Shown here: positions 1,320-38,517 of the stretch, in pieces
Layout: each line of letters starts with the position of its first letter
Numbering within the stretch: position 1 is the stretch's first letter
Source of the DNA: a virus
Lineage: Duplodnaviria > Heunggongvirae > Uroviricota > Caudoviricetes
Virus record (IMG/VR): IMGVR_UViG_2859827302_000005
Coordinates: 1-40,732 of that record
DNA length: 40,732 nucleotides
Reading direction: 5' to 3' (one strand)
The notes under the pieces: generated by a model
What the model was told of the DNA's origin: nothing
Databases searched by the model: none
The model's input: only the letters and a program-made list of their open reading frames with translations
Translations under genes and position numbers: made by a program

Positions 1320-1500
1320 CATAATCCCAATGATTACTCCCTGACAGGGTTCGTAGGCCACTCAATATCAGGTGCAGTTGATGTATCAACACGGTTCAGC
1401 AACACCCGATACTTTTTCCAGGCTTCCAGCAATGAGGTTTCTTCCTCCGTTGCAATTTCCAGATCTGCAGCATCCTGAAGCGGCGCAATATGCTCACTGG
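1285..1500. repeat. direct repeat copy B (3' end of intact tfa plus downstream hairpin)
   Basis: Homologous to 236..450; together the two copies flank the methyltransferase gene. Confidence 0.6.
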
Positions 1501-1918
1501 CTACCTGCATCAGGTTGTTTTTTGTTTCTTCCGCCTCCCGGATCCGGAACATTTTTTCTGCTTCCGTACCCTTCACCCAGGCTGTGCCGTTCCACTTCTG
1601 AAACTCCCCTTCCGGCGATAACCAGGTAACATTTTCCGGTAACGGACCGAGTTCAGAAATAAATAACTCGTCCCCTGACGCTACGTCATAAACCGTTTTA
1701 CCCCGATGGTCTTCAACGAGATGCCACGATGCCTCATCACTGTTGAAAACAGCCACAAAGCCAGCAGGAATATCTGGTGGTGCAATATCGGTACTGTTTG
1801 CTGGCAGACCTGTATGAGGCGGAATATATGCGTCACCTTCACCAATAAATTCATTAGTTCCGGCCAGCAGATTATAAATTTTTATGGTCCGTGCTTGTTC
1901 ACTCATTCTGAATGCCAT
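1334..1918 (-). CDS. tfa: tail fiber assembly protein Tfa (lambda orf-194 type)
   Basis: 194 aa, near-identical to lambda Tfa as I recall it (MAFRMSEQ...[12 protein letters not shown]). Its ATG overlaps the stf stop codon. Confidence 0.9.
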
Positions 1919-25308: not shown

Positions 25309-25776
25309 TTATTTCAGGCACTGAGTGCGGATATATTCCTGCGCCACTTCCAGCTGCTTCTGCATCAGCATCAACCGCTCTCTGAGAGTGAAATAATCCC
25401 GTTCAGCGGTGTCTGCCAGTCGGGGGCCGGTTGCATTATCCACGCCGGAGGTGGTGGGGGCTTCACGCACGGTACCGGGGCAGGTGGCGTTGATCCGCAG
25501 GCGCTTACGACCAGCGGCAACGTCAGCGCGCAGAGTTTCATTTTCAGCTCTCGCATCGGCTAATTCCCTCGAGTATCTGGCATCAAGTGCAGCAACATCA
25601 CGCTGGCGCTGCTGCATATCAGTAATGGTTGCATTTGCCTGCTCCAGCTCACTGACTTTTTTATCGCGCTGCTCTTTGTAGGTTATGGCGTTATCACGGT
25701 AATGATTCAGCCCCAGACTAAGCGCACCACAGGCCACCAGCAGGGCAATGATGACCACGCACAGTACGCGGTTCAT
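25309..25776 (-). CDS. Rz: i-spanin Rz
   Basis: 155 aa, lambda Rz-like (…NHYRDNAITYKEQRDK…). Confidence 0.9.
   Translation of the reverse strand: MNRVLCVVIIALLVACGALSLGLNHYRDNAITYKEQRDKKVSELEQANATITDMQQRQRDVAALDARYSRELADARAENETLRADVAAGRKRLRINATCPGTVREAPTTSGVDNATGPRLADTAERDYFTLRERLMLMQKQLEVAQEYIRTQCLK
25371..25541 (-). CDS. Rz1: o-spanin Rz1 (lipoprotein embedded in +1 frame of Rz)
   Basis: MKLCALTLPLVVSACGS lipobox followed by a Pro-rich region, nested inside Rz. Confidence 0.8.
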   Translation of the reverse strand: MKLCALTLPLVVSACGSTPPAPVPCVKPPPPPAWIMQPAPDWQTPLNGIISLSESG

Positions 25777-25942
25777 TTCACCACCAGCGTATCTGACCGA
25801 TGAAATAACCGGAGGCCATAATCACAAACACCAGCCAGATAAGAATGAACTTCCAGGTGGATAATTTTTCAGCCATCTCCCGAATCAGTTTGCTAAAATC
25901 AAACACACTTTCTCCTTTGACTTTTCCAGAGTCAGGAAACAC

Positions 25943-25976
25943 AAAACCCCGCTTGCAGCCAACAAACGGGGTTTTT
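25943..25976. terminator. hairpin with flanking A/T runs (possible bidirectional terminator) between R and Rz
   Basis: aaaaccccg...cggggtttt with a roughly 15-nt loop, flanked by A-run and T-run. Confidence 0.35.
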
Positions 25977-26065
25977 ACTTTTATTCACTTAGTTTTTGTC
26001 AGTTCGCAGGATTTCGTGTTATCCGTCCGTGTAAGCAAACCGCATTTTTCAGCAAAATATTCTGC

Positions 26066-26599
26066 TTATCTGTCGATACCCCAGCACGCCAGCGCGCTCT
26101 CCTGGTCACGACGGGATACCTGACCGTAGCAGTTGTTTGAACGAATACGGCAGTCTCTGCCACCGTCCTTAATCCACCAGCGAATCGCCTCACACGCTCC
26201 CCTGCGATCACCTGCATTAATTCGTTTATAAAACGTCGACGGGAAACACTTACCGGGACCAATGTTGTACGGACAGAATGACGCGATCCCCGCTTTCTGG
26301 GGTTCGCTCAATGGCACTCTGATGTTTTTCTCCACCCATGCCAGCGCCTTATCACGCTCAATGGCGTTAACCCGGTCGCATTTTTCCTTCGACAACTTCA
26401 TGCCCGGAACGACAGGTTTGCCATCCACCAGGATGGCACCGCGGCAGATGGTCCAGATACCCGCGCCATCACGGTATGCCGTGGTGTGGTTACCTTCCTT
26501 TTCATCCAGAAACTGGTCGAGAATGTCAGGCGCAGGCGCACCAGCGGCAATCAGCGCCAGAACGGCAGCCGACAGGCCGTATCTGATTTTTGCGTTCAT
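26066..26599 (-). CDS. R: SAR endolysin (lysozyme), RrrQ-like
   Basis: 177 aa, near-identical to my recollection of the E. coli Qin-prophage lysozyme RrrQ, with an N-terminal signal-arrest-release segment. Confidence 0.9.
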   Translation of the reverse strand: MNAKIRYGLSAAVLALIAAGAPAPDILDQFLDEKEGNHTTAYRDGAGIWTICRGAILVDGKPVVPGMKLSKEKCDRVNAIERDKALAWVEKNIRVPLSEPQKAGIASFCPYNIGPGKCFPSTFYKRINAGDRRGACEAIRWWIKDGGRDCRIRSNNCYGQVSRRDQESALACWGIDR

Positions 26600-26704
26600 G
26601 GATATTTATCAGGATTTATCGGTTTCTGAGCCCTGGATATGTTTATCAGTTCCAGCCTGTTGCCTCAGGCTGCTAACAGGTCAATACAATCATGAGGATT
26701 ATTT

Positions 26705-26977
26705 ATGGACAATAACACCATTTCTCTACAGGAGTTGCTCGACAGCATTTCCAGGCTTCGGGAAGACGTGAATACCCTTACCGTCGCCTTCTCATATCTG
26801 GCATTCTCAATTCCAAGGGAACAGATGCAATCAACGCTGGCATCAATCCAGTTTGAATCATGCAATCCCAAATGGTCTCAGGAACAACAAGACTCTTTCA
26901 GGCGGCTTGCTGTATTACTGGATGAAAAATATGCTGGTAAAATTACCATTTCGGCGGACTCTTCAGAGAACCCGTAA
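26705..26977 (+). CDS. hypothetical 90-aa protein, convergent ORF inside the lysis cassette
   Basis: Strong GAGGA Shine-Dalgarno 7 nt before the ATG, with a possible TTGCCT/TACAAT promoter upstream. 3' end overlaps the ydfR-like gene by 35 nt. No family recognised. Confidence 0.4.
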   Translation: MDNNTISLQELLDSISRLREDVNTLTVAFSYLAFSIPREQMQSTLASIQFESCNPKWSQEQQDSFRRLAVLLDEKYAGKITISADSSENP

Positions 26978-27287
26978 TTATTCCCGGTAGTTTTCCTCTG
27001 TAGGTTATCAACACATCCTGCGCCTCTAAAATTACGGGACGCTTTTCCGGCGACTGCTCATCCCCTTCACATAACCCGGCAGCAACATCCAGGAAGACCT
27101 GTCTGATGCTCCTTCTGGCTGCTGCCTCATAAAACTCCAGCGCGGCACCTTCAACACGGTCCAGCGCGATGTCCAGGTCAAAAATTTCACCGTCAAAGCG
27201 TTTTTTGTCCCGTAACGCTAAAGTTACCGTAACTTTATTCTCAAAATTGCGGATCCCTTTCACAATCAGTTCATAGTTTTGAGTCAT
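26943..27287 (-). CDS. ydfR: YdfR-like lysis-cassette protein (DUF1327-like)
   Basis: 114 aa between holin and endolysin, as in the Qin essQ-ydfR-rrrQ arrangement. GGAGAG Shine-Dalgarno. Confidence 0.6.
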   Translation of the reverse strand: MTQNYELIVKGIRNFENKVTVTLALRDKKRFDGEIFDLDIALDRVEGAALEFYEAAARRSIRQVFLDVAAGLCEGDEQSPEKRPVILEAQDVLITYRGKLPGIITGSLKSPPKW

Positions 27288-27291
27288 TGAA

Positions 27292-27507
27292 TTACTCTCC
27301 CCGTGCCGCCTTACGACGGTCCTCTCTGATTTTGAAATACAGGTTAGTCAGATATGTCAGCAGCCCAAACAGCAGACTCCCCAGCACGCCTATTGCCGCC
27401 CACTGAGACGGGGAAACCCTGTCCAGCAACTGCAGGAACCAGTAGCCCGTTCCCACCGCTGACGTGGTGTATGACACACCTGTTGTGATTTTTTCCATCT
27501 GGTACAT
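27292..27507 (-). CDS. S: class II holin (S21/EssQ-like) with dual-start motif
   Basis: 71 aa, [28 protein letters not shown]…, two transmembrane segments. Dual starts at Met1 and Met4. Confidence 0.8.
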
Positions 27508-27618
27508 ACCCCGTCTCCCGTTATCCGGAAGCTGACAACAATAAAAAAAGCCACCAGTTAAGTACTGATGGCTCTGATAACTCATGCAGGCCTCTCAGAC
27601 GACCCACTGGATTTGCCC

Positions 27619-28524
27619 CTATATTTCCAGACATCTGTTATCACTTAACCCATTACAAGCCCGCTGCCGCAGATATTCCCGTGGCGAGCGATAACCCAGC
27701 GCACTATGCGGATGCCATTCGTTATAATGCTCGAACGCCTCTGCAAGGTTCTTTGCTGCCGTTAACCCGTCTGGTTTGGGCATGATACTGATGTAGTCAC
27801 GCTTTATCGTTTGCACGAAGCTCTCTGCTATTCCGTTACTCTCCGGACTCCGCACCGCCGTGTTCTTCGGTTCAAGTCCCAACATCCGGGCGAACTGGCG
27901 TGTTTCATTAGCCCGGTAGCATGAACCATTATCCGTCAGCCACTCCACTGGAGACGACGGAAGATCGTTGCCGAAGCGGCGTTCCACCGCTCCCAGCATG
28001 ACGTCCTGTACTGTTTCACTGTTGAAGCCGCCGGTAGTCACCGCCCAGTGCAGTGCCTCACGATCACAGCAGTCCAGCGCGAACGTGACACGCAGTCTCT
28101 CTCCGTTATCACAGCAGAACTCGAACCCGTCAGAGCACCATCGCTGATTGCTTTCTTTCACGGCCACTCTGCCTGTATGTGCCCGTTTCGATGGTGGTAC
28201 AGCAGGTTTTCGCTCAAGCAACAGCGCATTCTGGCGCATGATCCGGTAAACACGTTTGGCATTGATCGCAGGCATACCATCAAGTTCTGCCTGTCTGCGA
28301 AGCAGCGCCCATACCCGACGATAACCATACGTGGGCAGCTCTCCGATAACATGGTGTATACGGAGAAGCACATCCGTATCATCAGTGTGACGACTGCGGC
28401 GGCCATCCATCCAGTCATCGGTTCGTCTGAGAATGACGTGCAACTGCGCACGCGACACCCGGAGACAACGGCTGACTAAGCTTACTCCCCATCCCCGGGC
28501 AATAAGGGCGCGTGCGCTATCCAC
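27619..28524 (-). CDS. insD: IS2 transposase OrfB (InsD)
   Basis: 301-aa ORF with DDE integrase-like sequence; in IS2 it is expressed as a frameshift fusion with InsC. Confidence 0.9.
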
Positions 28525-28847
28525 TTTTTTGCCCGTCCATATTCAACGGCTTCTTTGAGGAGTTCATTTTCCATCGTTTTCTTGCCGAGCAGGCGCTGGA
28601 GTTCTTTAATCTGCTTCATGGCGGCAGCAAGTTCAGAGGCAGGAACAACCTGTTCTCCGGCGGCCACAGCAGTAAGACTTCCTTCCTGGTATTGCTTACG
28701 CCAGAGAAATAACTGGCTGGCTGCTACACCATGTTGCCGGGCAACGAGGGAGACCGTCATCCCCGGTTCAAAGCTCTGCTGAACAATTGCGATCTTTTCC
28801 TGTGTGGTACGCCGTCTGCGTTTCTCCGGCCCTAAGACATCAATCAT
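28482..28847 (-). CDS. insC: IS2 OrfA (InsC)
   Basis: 121 aa, [41 protein letters not shown]…, helix-turn-helix. Confidence 0.9.
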
Positions 28848-28993
28848 CTGTACTCCAATGACTAGTCTAAAAACTAGTATTAAGACTATCACTTATTTAA
28901 GTGATACTGGTTGTCTGGAGATTCAGGGGGCCAGTCTACCCACTGACACTACCGGTGAGTTTAACGATACCTTCCATTTGACTGGCTCACTTT

Positions 28994-30850
28994 TTATGAT
29001 GATGCCGGTGCATTTATCTCCAGCACCAGACTTTCTATCTCAACGCCATACGCTGCATTTTTGGTAATATCCGTCAGCGTCAGCGCATTCAGCCCCAGTG
29101 TCAGACTGTCTTTTATGACCTGGAATGCCGGGCCAGCCACTCCATTCAGTTTCGGAGTAACCGTGGCACTGCCGGCGGTGAACACCAGCTCCAGCGTCTG
29201 CCAGTCGTTACTGTAATTCCCGAACTCGCCCAACTTTGTGTTTCCGGCTTTCTTGTGATGCATCAGATTCAGTTTGCCGTCTGTGGTCTGGGTGAAGAAC
29301 GACATCAGGAACGGGTTACCAGTCCCGGTCATCGCCACGACGTCAGGTAACGCTACATCGGTATACAGATAAATTCCCAGACCGAACTGGTTGTTGGTCA
29401 GTGCGCCTGACAGTCGAAACTTACAGCTCAGTCTGCCACCCCGTGTCAGCAGGGAGACTGCGTCATCCACCGGATGCATCAGGGACCAGGTTTTATTGCT
29501 CTGCTTGGTAACCTTAAACACACCATCTTCCAGCGCAACACTGCCGCCGGTGATGGTCCAGCCCTGCGCAGCAGCCTCTCCGGCTGTCGGCAGCAGGGAG
29601 ACTGTACGAACGGATGTGTCACCATCAGACGGCCCCGATGGCGTGTCGCCGCCGGGCGAGGGTTTAATCTCCGGTGCGGTACCGCTGATGAAGGCGCTGG
29701 TTCGACCAACTGCGTTCAGAATAGCGGTTGCCAGGCGATCCGAAATAATGCCCCTGCGCGCCCATGAACTGAAATGTGTCGGACGATTTGACGATACCCA
29801 ATTACCATTACTACGGGATTGCGCGCCGTAATAACCTGCATCAGCAATATCCGGGTCTTCTGCCGGTAAGTTGGTGGGCGTGTTGTTGCCGTTACCGTCG
29901 GTCATGAACGGCACAAAGAAAACGTTGTCGCTCTCCCTGTTTTTGTACGCGCCGTAGACGGAGTCATACTGTGTGCCGTATGTGTTTTTCCAGTAATACG
30001 TCGTGTCGCCACAAATCCACGGTACAACTGCAGCACTGCCGCCATGGCACTGCGCGTTAAATCCGGAAAGGTCAGTACGGAACTGCTTCAGCATGGCCGT
30101 GAACAGGTCCGGTTGCTGTGCGTAGGTGGCAGCGCTCATGTCAAATTCGCCCTGCATCCAGCACACCGCCAGCAACACATTTTTCGGGTTCTTCTGTAAT
30201 GCCGCTTTGGTGCGTGCGATCAGGTCCTGATATAACGGTTTACCCACACCCCAGCGTGCCGAATCCTGGCTGGCCCCCGTGTCCGCACTGAATGTCCCCT
30301 CCGCGCCCTGGGTGAATGCCGAACCACCACGACAGCATGGTACCAGCAGGATCCCCGCGTTATTCGGGATATACGGAAGCAGTTTTTTGGCAATATGTAA
30401 GCCCTGGCCGACACAGCCGTACTGCCCTTTGCTCAGGTCTGCCTTCGGATGATTCAGTGCGCTCATATCCTGAACATCATGCAGGCAGTGGTCTGCCGGA
30501 ATGATGTCGTTAAATGCGCATGCTTTACCACCGGGAGTCACTGTGTTGCGACGGGCCAGTTGCTTAATACGTGGGTGGGGCGCATCGTAAGAATCCGGAA
30601 GCGGAAGCCCTTCACCGTAAGCCATGGCATTGGATTGCCCGGCCAGTACGATGACGTAGTACCACTCCGGCTCAGTTGCACCACTGACGACCACATCACC
30701 TTCTGCTGCAATCGCCTGCATCAGGGTATAAGGGGTTATGGCCACCGGACTACCAAACGGCTGCCAGCCCTCTTTCAGTTTATGTGTCAGCTTTTCCGCA
30801 AGATCTGACGGCGACGCCGCCCTGACAACATCATAGTGTTTAAATGCCAT
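28994..30850 (-). CDS. nanS: prophage sialate O-acetylesterase, NanS-p-like (SGNH hydrolase plus C-terminal domain)
   Basis: 618 aa from the ATG at 30850 (alternative ATG at 30865; the ORF-track start is a TTG inside IS1). SGNH motif VIVLAGQSNAMAYGE. Sits between the tRNA/stx slot and the holin, as nanS-p does in Stx phages. Confidence 0.7.
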   Translation of the reverse strand: MAFKHYDVVRAASPSDLAEKLTHKLKEGWQPFGSPVAITPYTLMQAIAAEGDVVVSGATEPEWYYVIVLAGQSNAMAYGEGLPLPDSYDAPHPRIKQLARRNTVTPGGKACAFNDIIPADHCLHDVQDMSALNHPKADLSKGQYGCVGQGLHIAKKLLPYIPNNAGILLVPCCRGGSAFTQGAEGTFSADTGASQDSARWGVGKPLYQDLIARTKAALQKNPKNVLLAVCWMQGEFDMSAATYAQQPDLFTAMLKQFRTDLSGFNAQCHGGSAAVVPWICGDTTYYWKNTYGTQYDSVYGAYKNRESDNVFFVPFMTDGNGNNTPTNLPAEDPDIADAGYYGAQSRSNGNWVSSNRPTHFSSWARRGIISDRLATAILNAVGRTSAFISGTAPEIKPSPGGDTPSGPSDGDTSVRTVSLLPTAGEAAAQGWTITGGSVALEDGVFKVTKQSNKTWSLMHPVDDAVSLLTRGGRLSCKFRLSGALTNNQFGLGIYLYTDVALPDVVAMTGTGNPFLMSFFTQTTDGKLNLMHHKKAGNTKLGEFGNYSNDWQTLELVFTAGSATVTPKLNGVAGPAFQVIKDSLTLGLNALTLTDITKNAAYGVEIESLVLEINAPASS

Positions 30851-30930
30851 GGTTCTTTCCACCATCTGAAAAATGGGTGATGCTGCCAACTTACTGATTT
30901 AGTGTATGATGGTGTTTTTGAGGTGCTCCA

Positions 30931-31886: not shown

Positions 31887-32222
31887 ATGAAGTGGATTGT
31901 GATTGATACAGTTATCCAGCCATCATGCGGAATATCTTTTTCAGTCATATGGAGTAAAATAAAATTAATAATCTGGTATCAATCGGATGCTTTCTTACCT
32001 CCTGAAAGTATATTTACACTGACTCACACAGGCATCATGCTCAATAACAAAGTGCTACCTGTAACCATTTACAACGTAGTGCCATTCAATAAAACATTCT
32101 GGAATTTAATCAAAAACAGCCAGGAATGCCCTACAAATACAGATAACGTATTGAATGAATGCTTTAATAACCGTTGCACTCTGCAAATATGTCCTTATGG
32201 ACTAAAACAACAAAGTCCATAA
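31887..32222 (+). CDS. hypothetical 111-aa protein, AT-rich, Cys-rich C-terminus
   Basis: AAGGA Shine-Dalgarno 7 nt before the ATG, very AT-rich upstream region, opposite strand to the late genes. Five Cys in the last ~35 aa. No family recognised. Confidence 0.45.
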
Positions 32223-32257
32223 GGAGTTTACTCACATCTGACAAAATCAATATAAAC

Positions 32258-32455
32258 AGCCCCTCCGTAGAGGGGCTGGAGAGTGGCGCTATGTGCCATT
32301 GCATGGTGCCGGGTGCCTCCCGGTGAATTCAGTACCAGCACCTGAATCCGCGATTATCCCATATACCTACTCGCTGATTGCCCCTCCGCACAGGGGGATT
32401 CACCATGCGAAATTTTTTAACAAACTTCCCGCTGGCCAGACAATAATCGCCAGCC
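32258..32455. repeat. structured non-coding element, paralog 1 (candidate sRNA or recombination element)
   Basis: Shares ordered conserved blocks with 32721..32920: GC hairpin agcccctccgtagaggggct, gcatggtgccgggtgcctcccggtgaattcag, a hairpin attcag-N9-ctgaat, agggggattcaccatgcga, and ttttttaacaaa…gccagacaat. No conserved ORF. Confidence 0.4.
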
Positions 32456-32720
32456 TGAATTATGAGCAACGTAGCATTTTACGGGAAAACTGTTTTCTGC
32501 AGTAAAAAGGCCCGCCGGAGCGAGCCTGGAAGGATAGCGGTCATGTGATGCCGGTTTCCCGGTAACTCAGCATCGGTATCTGAGTCAACGTTTTCTCTAC
32601 TGGGTCATTTCCGATACGTTCCGCCTTCCGGCAGACTTTCATCACGTCAGAAAATATAGCACCCTGAGTAACAGGACAGTACTCAGAATTCAGGAAACTG
32701 TGACACATCCTGCACAGAAA

Positions 32721-32920
32721 AGCCCCTCCGGAGAGGGGCTGAAGTATAGCCTAATTTCTGTCTGTCGCATGGTGCCAGGTGCCTCCCGGTAAATTCAGCC
32801 TGTCTACTGAATTTGCATGTTCTCTGGATCATACACTTTGCCAGATGCCCCGCCGCTGAGGGGGATTCACCATGCGATGTAATTTTTAACAAATTCTCCG
32901 GCAGCCAGACAATCATCAAG
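32721..32920. repeat. structured non-coding element, paralog 2
   Basis: Same block order as 32258..32455. The internal hairpin keeps its stem but changes its loop (aaattcag-N8-ctgaattt). Confidence 0.4.
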
Positions 32921-33170: not shown

Positions 33171-33247
33171 TGGACCGCCATCGAGAACTCGAACCCCGCG
33201 CAACCAGCTTCGAAGGCTGGCGCTCTATCCCGATGAGCTAATGGCGG
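33171..33247 (-). tRNA. argN: tRNA-Arg (anticodon UCG), argN-like
   Basis: Manual fold: 7-bp acceptor CCGCCAT/ATGGCGG, D-stem GCTC/GAGC, anticodon stem CCAGC/GCTGG with loop CTTCGAA, T-loop TTCGAGT (T-stem with two G-U pairs), 3' CCA encoded. Confidence 0.7.
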
Positions 33248-33254
33248 TATGTGA

Positions 33255-33330
33255 TGGTGGCCCTTGCTGGATTTGAACCAGCGACCTGGCGATTATGAGT
33301 CGCTCGCTCTCACCACTGAGCTAAAGGGCC
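33255..33330 (-). tRNA. ileZ: tRNA-Ile2 (anticodon CAU, lysidine type), ileZ-like
   Basis: Minus strand GGCCCTTTAGCTCAGTGGTGAGAGCGAGCGACTCATAATCGCCAGGTCGCTGGTTCAAATCCAGCAAGGGCCACCA, close to E. coli ileX as I recall it. Confidence 0.85.
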
Positions 33331-35004: not shown

Positions 35005-35826
35005 CTATCGCGTTACCCTCTTTAACTGCCGCTCCGCCCATGCCTCTTCAATGTCAAACCGAACCACCAACGTATCGTAAAAGCGTTTCACTGATTTTTT
35101 CCACGTATCAAGCGTGATAGCACTCGTCACTTTGCATATGGCATTAAATGCCTCCGTTGATGGTAGTCTTTCACAGCCACGACCACCACAACGCTGGCAG
35201 TCTCTGATAACAGGCATACCACGTTTTACCGACTCTTCACGATGAATGGCGACACCACGCCCACGGCAATCCTTACAGGCGGTGGAAACCTCACCCTTTC
35301 CGCCACACTCCGGACAGGCAACTTTTACCACCTCCCTGACTTTTTTCCATTCTTCCCAGTAAGACGGATACACACCTTTCGTACACTTTGCCCATACCGG
35401 CGGCTTACCATCCGGATACTGGACCTTGTTTGTAAAAACTACGCTTTCAATAAATTTTTCCCCATAGCAACAAGGGCACTGCTTTTTACTCGCTGCGCTG
35501 CGGGCATAATCCTCAAAAGCGTACGAAGCCATAATGCGCATCACTACCGGTTTTATTTCTGCCGGAAGTTTTCTCAACGCCGCCACACGATCGCACCGAC
35601 TGAGTGCATAATCTGCCAGTAATTCTGTTGCCCGCGCCCTGTCATTCATACTGATGCCCATTTTCCCCAGGAACGCAGAAAACCCCATCTCAGCCCGATT
35701 CTGTGTCATGCCCTGCGCGGCCATCACATCAGTGATACTCAGCGCATCTTTTGACGTTGAGGCCGATACATCGGTCAGGCCAGGGGATTTTGGGGAGTAG
35801 TATTTCGGTAAATCTTCCAGTTTCAT
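35005..35826 (-). CDS. Q: late antiterminator Q (Q82/YdfT-like, zinc-finger)
   Basis: 273 aa with CxxC…CxxC motifs (CPECGGKGEV…CKDCRGRG, CQRCGGRGCERLPSTEAF) resembling the phage-82-type Q family as I recall it. ATGA overlap with the rusA stop. Confidence 0.65.
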   Translation of the reverse strand: MKLEDLPKYYSPKSPGLTDVSASTSKDALSITDVMAAQGMTQNRAEMGFSAFLGKMGISMNDRARATELLADYALSRCDRVAALRKLPAEIKPVVMRIMASYAFEDYARSAASKKQCPCCYGEKFIESVVFTNKVQYPDGKPPVWAKCTKGVYPSYWEEWKKVREVVKVACPECGGKGEVSTACKDCRGRGVAIHREESVKRGMPVIRDCQRCGGRGCERLPSTEAFNAICKVTSAITLDTWKKSVKRFYDTLVVRFDIEEAWAERQLKRVTR

Positions 35827-38070: not shown

Positions 38071-38226
38071 TTACTCCTCAGGTTCGTAAGCTGTGAAGAC
38101 AGCGACCTCCGTCTGGCCGGTTCGGATTCGTACCTCGCAGAGGTCTTTCCTCGTTACCAGTGCCGTCACAATGACGGTTAAACAGATGACGATCAGGGCG
38201 ATTAGCATCGCCTTTTGCTGCTTCAT
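38071..38226 (-). CDS. hok: Hok-family type I toxin
   Basis: MKQQKAMLIALIVICLTVIVTALVTRKDLCEVRIRTGQTEVAVFTAYEPEE, 51 aa. Confidence 0.9.
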   Translation of the reverse strand: MKQQKAMLIALIVICLTVIVTALVTRKDLCEVRIRTGQTEVAVFTAYEPEE

Positions 38227-38283
38227 AGCCTGCTTCTCCTTGCCTTTCGGCACGTAAGAGGCTAACCTACGTGTGTAGAGCAT
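38071..38283 (-). CDS. mok: Mok (overlapping reading frame that drives hok translation)
   Basis: 70-aa ORF in the same frame, extending 19 codons upstream of hok. Confidence 0.6.
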   Translation of the reverse strand: MLYTRRLASYVPKGKEKQAMKQQKAMLIALIVICLTVIVTALVTRKDLCEVRIRTGQTEVAVFTAYEPEE

Positions 38284-38300
38284 AGATATGGCCTCAGATT
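38230..38300 (+). ncRNA. sok: predicted Sok antisense RNA (approximate position)
   Basis: Placed by analogy with hok/sok loci, antisense to the mok start region. Boundaries not determined from sequence. Confidence 0.3.
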
Positions 38301-38517
38301 AATGTTAAGCGTCTTGCCGGACGCGTAATGTTAACTGGGGCTTTTCTCTATCTGCCTTTTGGTGTTCATGCCTGAGACAGATAGCCTCAAGCACCCGCTG
38401 CAATTCTACTTAACTCTCCTTTTCCCGCAAACCGTTTTTATCCCCAGCGGCAAATCGAATACACCACCAGCGCCACCGCCATCGCAATTCCTACCGTTGT
38501 TAATGCTTCAGGCCAGG

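What the first reader, a model, noticed from the sequence alone, without database searches (positions are those of the whole stretch)
26600..26977. Convergent, independently signalled small ORF inside the lysis cassette
A 90-aa ORF on the plus strand (26705..26977) has a strong GAGGA Shine-Dalgarno and a plausible promoter, sits between the YdfR-like gene and R, and overlaps the YdfR-like 3' end by 35 nt in convergent orientation. The canonical S-(ydfR)-R-Rz operon has no opposite-strand gene, so this may be a lysis modulator, a moron, or an antisense arrangement.
Basis: seen in the sequence. Interest (0 to 1): 0.45.

Follow-up and report, generated by a model that had tools for sequence, protein, structure and literature searches.

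The report
Small accessory gene inside prophage lysis cassette
The 90-codon reverse-strand ORF between the ydfR-like gene and the endolysin gene is a real, selected, already annotated but uncharacterised accessory ('moron') gene carried by about a fifth of E. coli genomes; it is probably not part of the lysis machinery.

Summary
The ORF (26705..26977, +) is present as described. It has a GAGGA Shine-Dalgarno 6 nt before the ATG and overlaps the 3' end of ydfR by 35 nt. It is a genuine gene:
- dN/dS is about 0.2.
- The frame is open in 25 of 27 distinct alleles.
- The only other low-dN/dS frame is antisense and carries scattered stops.
- It matches PHROG 2411 over its full length, and RefSeq and UniRef already list it ('hypothetical protein', 'Ybl58').

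It lies on a ~273-nt, low-GC insertion exactly between the ydfR stop and the R leader. This insert-specific DNA is in 1207 of 5426 complete E. coli genomes, and related cassettes lack it.

The product is a soluble, acidic, three-helix 10-kDa protein with no Pfam, PADLOC, PDB or fold match. It belongs to a wider Enterobacterales family. Members in Serratia and Winslowiella are chromosomal genes in the conserved order pyrC-dinI-X-bssS-solA. E. coli copies also sit beside iha and beside AIDA-type autotransporter genes.

The best reading is a moron expressed independently of late transcription, acting by protein binding on a host target. A role as lysis modulator or antisense regulator is not supported. 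The claimed promoter is no better than chance. This is an ordinary kind of feature with unknown function.

The parts
26705..26977 (+). Ybl58-family CDS (90 aa; PHROG 2411). The product is a small, acidic, three-helix cytoplasmic protein.
   Evidence: E 1e-58, full length; RefSeq CDS; dN/dS 0.21, frame open; AF2 pLDDT 85.6; pI 4.5, no TM; UniRef 'Ybl58'.
26694..26698 (+). Shine-Dalgarno GAGGA, 6 nt before the ATG.
   Evidence: Conserved in 18 of 19 distinct upstream sequences and, as AGGA or AAGGA, in most other contexts.
26670..26942 (.). An indel of about 273 nt that carries the ORF. It is absent from related S21-ydfR-R cassettes and has 43% GC against 55% in R and Rz.
   Evidence: alignment with 675SK2; 1207 of 5426 genomes; GC.
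26943..26977 (.). 35-nt convergent overlap: the last 11 codons plus stop of the ORF against the last 10 codons plus stop of ydfR. This sequence is also present in ORF-less cassettes.
   Evidence: dN/dS here is 0.44-0.53; pLDDT <50 for residues 86-90.
26660..26690 (+). Best promoter-like match, TTGCCT-19 nt-TACAAT. It is weak, not above chance, and would start transcription at or after the Shine-Dalgarno.
26943..27287 (-). ydfR-like gene (DUF1327, 114 aa), part of the late operon.
   Evidence: The K-12 YdfR protein binds the N-terminal half of RNase E (PMC13232886).
27292..27507 (-). Class II (phage 21 S-type) holin, 71 aa.
   Evidence: (PF04971, E 9e-33).
26066..26599 (-). Endolysin R (lysozyme, 177 aa).
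25309..25776 (-). Rz spanin, with Rz1 embedded at 25371..25556.
   Evidence: PF03245, E 8e-49.
25943..25975 (.). Bidirectional terminator-like hairpin downstream of R. On the + strand it would stop transcription arriving from further upstream, so the ORF needs a start site between about 25976 and 26704.
   Evidence: (z -3.2 on +, -4.0 on -; U-runs on both sides).

Best explanation
The ORF is a genuine accessory gene of the moron type. A low-GC segment of about 273 nt sits exactly between the stop codon of ydfR and the leader of R. It points against the Q-dependent late operon.

The segment encodes a 10-kDa, acidic, soluble three-helix protein. This protein belongs to an uncharacterised Enterobacterales family. 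In Serratia and Winslowiella the family member is a chromosomal gene between dinI and bssS.

Shown:
- The gene is coding and under purifying selection.
- It is an indel relative to related cassettes.
- It occurs in functional phages, in a pathogenicity-island remnant and on plasmids.
- It is homologous to the chromosomal family.

Inferred:
- Because of its orientation it can be made only when late transcription is silent, that is in the lysogen, from a weak and still unmapped start site between the hairpin at 25943-25975 and the ATG.
- It acts in the cytoplasm by binding a host protein, in the manner of other roughly 80-110-aa connector proteins such as IraM, DinI and BssS, rather than taking part in lysis.
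- The 35-nt overlap with ydfR is a by-product of the insertion. The E. coli ORF lacks the stop used by the Citrobacter homologue and runs 7 codons further into pre-existing ydfR sequence.
For: **Coding**
- dN/dS is 0.21 over codons 1-79, with variable sites 35/24/59 at codon positions 1/2/3.
- The + frame is open in every full-length allele. The wobble-coincident antisense frame has stops at differing positions in most alleles.
- dN/dS is 0.08-0.37 between alleles from different genomic contexts.
- It matches PHROG 2411 over its full length and is called as a CDS in RefSeq.

**Indel and composition**
- Alignment with an ORF-less cassette defines the insert.
- The insert is in 1207 of 5426 complete genomes, whereas some part of the 1.6-kb cassette query (26000-27600) matched in 4408.
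- GC is 43% in the insert and 55% in R and Rz.

**Independence from lysis**
- Intact homologues lie beside iha and beside AIDA-type autotransporter genes.
- A Citrobacter homologue lies upstream of a different holin and endolysin.
- In Serratia and Winslowiella the homologue sits in the order pyrC-dinI-X-bssS-solA.
- Homology to that chromosomal group is supported by hhalign (98.8% probability, E 8e-17) and by direct tblastn (E 1e-9 to 1e-16).

**Compatible with working phages**: the isolated phage Chlobot and the Stx2k phage phiSTEC1575 both carry it.

**Protein**: the AF2 model has three helices and pLDDT 85.6. There is no TM segment and the pI is 4.5.

**Same prophage**: it carries another opposite-strand moron, an IraM-identical ORF.
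Against: - No convincing promoter and no terminator of its own were found, so two classical moron features are missing.
- Expression in lysogens is not shown by any data I could reach.
- In phages the gene sits in or next to lysis genes in three different cassette types. That could mean a lysis-linked role rather than a tolerated insertion site.
Confidence: 0.6

Rival explanations
1. Lysis modulator: the protein adjusts lysis timing by acting on the holin, the endolysin or YdfR (which may in turn act through RNase E).
For: - In phages it is always in or beside a lysis cassette. Examples are S21-ydfR-ORF-R, S21-ydfR-ORF followed by a second holin/M15 cassette, and upstream of a lambda-S-type holin in Citrobacter.
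- In E. coli phages it is tightly linked to ydfR.
Against: - It is on the strand opposite late transcription.
- It has no membrane segment.
- Most cassettes lack it.
- Intact, selected homologues occur with no lysis genes nearby.
- The convergent partner in Citrobacter is not DUF1327.
Confidence: 0.12
2. Antisense or transcriptional-interference element: what matters is transcription from this unit running into ydfR and S. This would damp leaky holin expression in lysogens or collide with late transcription.
For: - The orientation is convergent, with a 35-nt overlap.
- No intrinsic terminator follows the ORF on the + strand within ydfR.
Against: - Selection is on the amino-acid sequence.
- Homologues keep the protein without any convergent partner.
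- No promoter stands out above chance.
- The overlap segment is the least constrained part of the ORF.
Confidence: 0.1
3. Two-gene toxin-antitoxin or defence pair formed with YdfR.
For: - The two small genes are adjacent and overlapping.
- YdfR is reported to bind RNase E and possibly RNA (PMC13232886).
Against: - Neither protein matches a PADLOC model.
- YdfR mostly occurs alone, and the ORF occurs without YdfR.
- The genes are convergent, not co-transcribed.
Confidence: 0.04
4. Chance ORF with no product.
For: - No Pfam family matches.
- The antisense frame shows an equally low apparent dN/dS.
Against: - The frame is open across alleles down to 58% identity and in homologues at 25-38% identity.
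- The antisense frame is broken in most alleles.
- The order of variability by codon position fits the + frame.
- The structure model is confident.
Confidence: 0.02

Closest known systems
Lambdoid-phage morons on the anti-late strand (lambda bor, iss, the prophage IraM copy)
   Same: - It is a small gene inserted between late-region genes and oriented against late transcription.
- It is present or absent among otherwise similar phages and differs from its flanks in composition.
- The same prophage carries an IraM-identical ORF at 31887..32222 on the same strand.
- Relatives carry bor or iss just beyond Rz.
   Different: - bor and iss encode lipoproteins with their own promoters. This ORF encodes a cytoplasmic helical protein, and no promoter or terminator could be recognised.
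- It sits inside the S-R block rather than at its end.
PHROG 2411 / UniRef 'Ybl58' / RefSeq WP_000369850.1
   Same: It is the same protein: a full-length profile match and the exact sequence found on at least 1000 contigs.
   Different: Nothing differs. The family has no described function, and no paper mentioning it was found.
Uncharacterised ~92-aa chromosomal protein between dinI and bssS in Serratia and Winslowiella
   Same: It is homologous over about 81 residues, with a shared AFSYLAF motif and the same three-helix layout.
   Different: - Identity is only 25-38%.
- Those genes are vertically inherited in a fixed chromosomal neighbourhood.
- E. coli K-12 has no gene or remnant at that site.
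Antiholins and lysis regulators encoded within lysis cassettes (the S21 dual start, P1 LydB, P2 LysA/LysB; from general knowledge)
   Same: It lies between the holin and endolysin genes.
   Different: Those genes are co-transcribed with the cassette, and most are membrane proteins. This ORF is on the other strand and its product is soluble.

Membership tests
Moron (Hendrix/Juhala sense) | Extra DNA present between two genes that are adjacent in related phages | tested here: met
   675SK2 has ydfR, 63 nt, then R. The window has an extra ~273 nt. The insert is in 1207 of 5426 genomes.
Moron (Hendrix/Juhala sense) | Nucleotide composition differs from the flanks | tested here: met
   GC is 43% in the insert, 55% in R and Rz, and 53% over the window.
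Moron (Hendrix/Juhala sense) | Own promoter and own terminator | tested here: inconclusive
   - the best promoter-like site is within the shuffle range and is not conserved in all alleles.
- no clear terminator follows the stop codon.
Moron (Hendrix/Juhala sense) | Expressed from the repressed prophage | not testable with these tools
   This needs RNA-seq, start-site mapping or proteomics of a lysogen.
PHROG 2411 | Full-length match to the family profile | tested here: met
   E 1.1e-58, residues 1-90 on profile positions 1-90.
Enterobacterales dinI-bssS-linked small protein family (unnamed) | Significant profile-profile and pairwise similarity over the whole domain | tested here: met
   - 98.8% probability, E 8e-17, 81 columns.
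- tblastn E 1e-9 to 1e-16.
- members found with the prophage-only profile at E 1e-6 to 1e-11.
Enterobacterales dinI-bssS-linked small protein family (unnamed) | Location between dinI and bssS | tested here: not met
   The window copy is in a prophage lysis cassette, so it is a transferred relative and not the positional orthologue.
Holin / antiholin | At least one transmembrane segment and co-transcription with the lysis genes | tested here: not met
   the highest 19-residue hydropathy is 0.75. The gene is on the opposite strand.
Known anti-phage defence or toxin-antitoxin proteins | Match to a PADLOC model | tested here: not met
   no match for the ORF, YdfR or the Citrobacter partner at E up to 1.

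The most novel reading that the evidence does not exclude
The prophage gene is a captured copy of a conserved enterobacterial stress-locus protein (the dinI-bssS neighbour). Lysogens would express it to rewire a host stress or RNA-decay pathway, possibly together with the RNase E-binding YdfR next to it. It would then be a new class of phage-borne host-physiology connector rather than neutral cargo.
Probability: 0.12. Interest if true: 0.6.

Novelty: new member of a known kind. Interest (0 to 1): 0.3.

Why it matters
- The gene is in about 22% of complete E. coli genomes, including ST131-type strains, BL21(DE3) derivatives and Stx2-converting phages. Even so, it has no assigned function.
- Showing that it is a selected gene, with chromosomal relatives in a fixed dinI-bssS neighbourhood, gives a starting point for testing what it does. 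Its Serratia homologue can be deleted and studied outside the phage setting.
- For phage biology it is one more example of cargo tolerated inside a lysis cassette. It also warns against reading position within a cassette as function.

Tried and rejected
**Searches that gave no function**
- Pfam, NCBIfam and PADLOC gave no family. The only line was a 15-residue NCBIfam 'Mip' match at E 0.037, which is noise.
- A profile search of PDB sequences gave nothing.
- The afdb50 library was unavailable.
- Literature searches for 'ybl58', the WP accession numbers and DUF1327 found nothing on this ORF. A dinI/bssS search was uninformative.
- Rfam has no family at 25-28 kb.

**Ideas tested and dropped**
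- The leader does not fold better than shuffles on either strand. The small CAGCCTG/CAGGCTG hairpin at 26654-26672 has no U-run and is only partly conserved.
- There is no LexA box upstream of the ORF by eye. CTGT and ACAG are 15 nt apart, not 8.
- The antisense 68-aa ORF (26665..26871 -) gives a low dN/dS only because its third codon positions coincide with those of the real gene. It is broken in most alleles.
- The 238-aa convergent partner in Citrobacter is not a YdfR homologue by BLASTP or Pfam. Only its last ~10 codons resemble the ydfR tail.
- There is no remnant of the chromosomal homologue in the K-12 dinI-bssS spacer.

Full report
**1. The observation**

The window carries a lambdoid late region on the minus strand. 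In order of transcription it reads:
- antiterminator Q (35005..35826)
- a DNA methylase
- a NanS-p-type SASA esterase (28994..30889)
- an IS2 copy
- a phage-21-type class II holin (27292..27507)
- a DUF1327/YdfR-like gene (26943..27287)
- lysozyme R (26066..26599)
- Rz and Rz1 (25309..25776)
- terminase Nu1

On the plus strand, 26705..26977 is a 90-codon ATG ORF. GAGGA sits at 26694-26698, and the last 35 nt overlap the 3' end of ydfR.

**2. Is it a gene?**

I collected homologous DNA from 102 loci: IMG/VR contigs, complete E. coli genomes, other assemblies, E. ruysiae and Citrobacter. These gave 27 distinct alleles.

Twenty-five alleles are intact. One has an internal stop and one is cut by an IS element.

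Over the 79 codons that do not overlap ydfR, pairwise Nei-Gojobori dN/dS has a median of 0.21. Variable sites number 35, 24 and 59 at codon positions 1, 2 and 3.

One antisense frame gives the same ratio. That is the frame whose third positions coincide with those of the + frame. It carries stop codons at different places in most alleles, whereas the + frame has none. Its implied order of variability by codon position is also atypical for a real gene.

dN/dS stays between 0.08 and 0.37 between alleles taken from different genomic settings.

The protein matches PHROG 2411 end to end at E 1e-58. RefSeq annotates it as a hypothetical protein in every genome examined. UniRef calls it 'Ybl58', and the exact sequence is on at least 1000 contigs.

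It fails: the frame is conserved.

**3. Anatomy of the insertion**

Alignment with a cassette that lacks the ORF (strain 675SK2) shows that about 273 nt (26670-26942) are extra. They lie between the R leader and the stop codon of ydfR.

The sequence covering the last 11 codons of the ORF is ordinary ydfR 3' sequence. It is present in ORF-less cassettes too.

The Citrobacter and Logan homologues end at ...ITIS* and ...ITIREG*. The E. coli ORF lacks the stop used by the Citrobacter homologue and reads 7 codons further into ydfR.

That tail is disordered in the model (pLDDT below 50) and has the highest dN/dS, 0.44-0.53. The overlap therefore looks like a by-product, not a device.

The insert has 43% GC, against 55% in R and Rz.

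Insert-specific DNA is found in 1207 of 5426 complete E. coli genomes. There are two main allele groups, at 99% or more and at 80-90% identity, plus 72 records at 60-80%. Some part of the 1.6-kb cassette query (26000-27600) matched in 4408 genomes.

**4. Signals**

The Shine-Dalgarno and its spacing are nearly invariant.

The promoter is not established:
- The consensus scan finds nothing between R and the ORF.
- A position-weight score picks TTGCCT-19 nt-TACAAT. Its score of 9.9 lies within the range of shuffled sequence.
- Its -10 ends 14 nt before the ATG, so its transcript would begin on or after the Shine-Dalgarno.
- Four of the 19 upstream sequences have G or C in place of the first T of the -10.
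- In one locus an IS66 replaces everything upstream of position -41.

A strong hairpin at 25943-25975 has U-runs on both strands. It would stop + strand transcription coming from further upstream. Any start site must therefore lie within antisense R or the spacer.

No terminator follows the ORF. Rfam has no family here, and the leader does not fold better than shuffles.

**5. The protein**

The product is 10.2 kDa with pI 4.5 and no hydrophobic segment.

With a 79-sequence alignment, AlphaFold gives pLDDT 85.6 and three helices at residues 8-35, 38-51 and 59-76.

**6. Relatives and their settings**

The close family is confined to Escherichia, Shigella and Citrobacter.

In phages it sits in three cassette types:
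- S21-ydfR-ORF-R (most loci)
- S21-ydfR-ORF followed by a second holin/M15 peptidase set
- in Citrobacter, upstream of a lambda-S-type holin, a CHAP endolysin and a DUF2514 protein, convergent with an unrelated 238-aa gene

Phage Chlobot and the Stx2k-converting phage phiSTEC1575 both carry it, so it is compatible with a working lysis cassette.

Intact copies also lie outside phages:
- next to iha, among IS remnants, still flanked by a trace of the R 5' end
- downstream of AIDA-type autotransporter genes, one copy on plasmid pRM11911

An exhaustive profile search and a second indexed search extend the family to 238 proteins of about 90 aa. They come from Serratia, Erwinia and Winslowiella, Pantoea, Mixta, Sodalis and others, and all are unnamed.

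In Serratia marcescens and in Winslowiella the gene lies in the conserved order pyrC-dinI-X-bssS-solA. E. coli K-12 has the same neighbourhood but an empty 286-nt dinI-bssS spacer with no remnant.

Homology between the phage and chromosomal groups is supported by hhalign (98.8% probability, E 8e-17, 81 columns). Direct tblastn gives 29-38% identity at E 1e-9 to 1e-16.

**7. Interpretation**

The data fit a moron:
- cargo DNA inserted at a gene boundary of the late region
- oriented so that it can be expressed only when Q-dependent late transcription is off
- encoding a small cytoplasmic protein related to a chromosomal enterobacterial protein

The same prophage carries a second gene of this sort on the same strand, identical to the RefSeq 'anti-adapter protein IraM'.

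I infer, but cannot show, two things. The first is that the product acts by binding a host protein. The second is that it is made in lysogens.

A direct role in lysis is unlikely. The gene is on the wrong strand, the protein has no membrane segment, most cassettes lack it, and selected homologues occur far from any lysis gene.

An antisense-RNA role cannot be excluded as a side effect. It does not explain selection on the protein or the homologues that have no convergent partner.

The neighbouring YdfR protein was recently reported to bind the catalytic half of RNase E and perhaps RNA (PMC13232886). That leaves a small chance of a functional link, but YdfR and the ORF each occur widely without the other.

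**8. Verdict**

The feature is an already annotated, function-unknown gene of an ordinary kind. The mildly new points are its link to a conserved chromosomal family next to dinI and bssS, and the finding that the overlap is incidental. Interest is modest.

Noticed in passing
window 27606-28936 (approx.): An IS2 copy lies between the NanS-p-type esterase gene and the holin gene, so it interrupts the late operon just upstream of S. It has orfA 28482..28892 and orfB 27619..28524 on the minus strand, 33-nt imperfect terminal inverted repeats, and short direct repeats 1336 nt apart. The close relative NCTC86 lacks it at this site.
   Followed up: partly
window 25943-25975: A strong bidirectional terminator-like hairpin lies directly after R, and R is separated from Rz by about 290 nt holding small ORFs (for example 25778..25942 -). 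In lambda, R and Rz are adjacent. RefSeq calls three tiny hypothetical genes here in NCTC86.
   Followed up: partly
window 27547-27575 (- strand): A terminator-like hairpin with a U-run lies just upstream of the holin start, between the IS2 end and S. It may be a late-operon terminator read through by Q-modified polymerase.
   Followed up: no
window 31887-32222 (+): This 111-aa ORF is 100% identical to the RefSeq 'anti-adapter protein IraM' of NCTC86. It is a second gene on the anti-late strand in the same prophage. It had no Pfam hit at E <= 0.001 here.
   Followed up: partly
window 32248-32436 and 32712-32905 (-); 33174-33330 (-); 38221-38396 (-); 1377-1575 (-): Rfam matches above gathering score: two STnc100 sRNA copies, two tRNA genes downstream of the methylase, a sok antitoxin RNA (a hok/sok-type locus), and IS009.
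   Followed up: no
L085 4239-4955 (-), Citrobacter meridianamericanus: The 238-aa gene convergent with the Citrobacter homologue has no Pfam family and no similarity to YdfR, except that its last ~10 codons (..ITGSLRVPMKL) resemble the YdfR tail (..ITGSLKSPPKW). The conserved unit may therefore be the ORF plus the 3' tip of whatever gene faces it.
   Followed up: partly
L103 5001-5282; L104-L106 5001-5276: The distant homologues in Serratia and Winslowiella lie between dinI and bssS. The Serratia dinI has a clear LexA box and its own terminator. The homologue has its own Shine-Dalgarno and no LexA box.
   Followed up: partly
L099 2427-2501: In a Stx-phage contig an IS66 ends about 41 nt before the ATG of the ORF and replaces R and the R-ORF spacer, yet the ORF is intact. 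A similar ISEc52 insertion truncates the ORF in strain ECC-1470 (L089). This spacer seems to be a frequent IS target.
   Followed up: no
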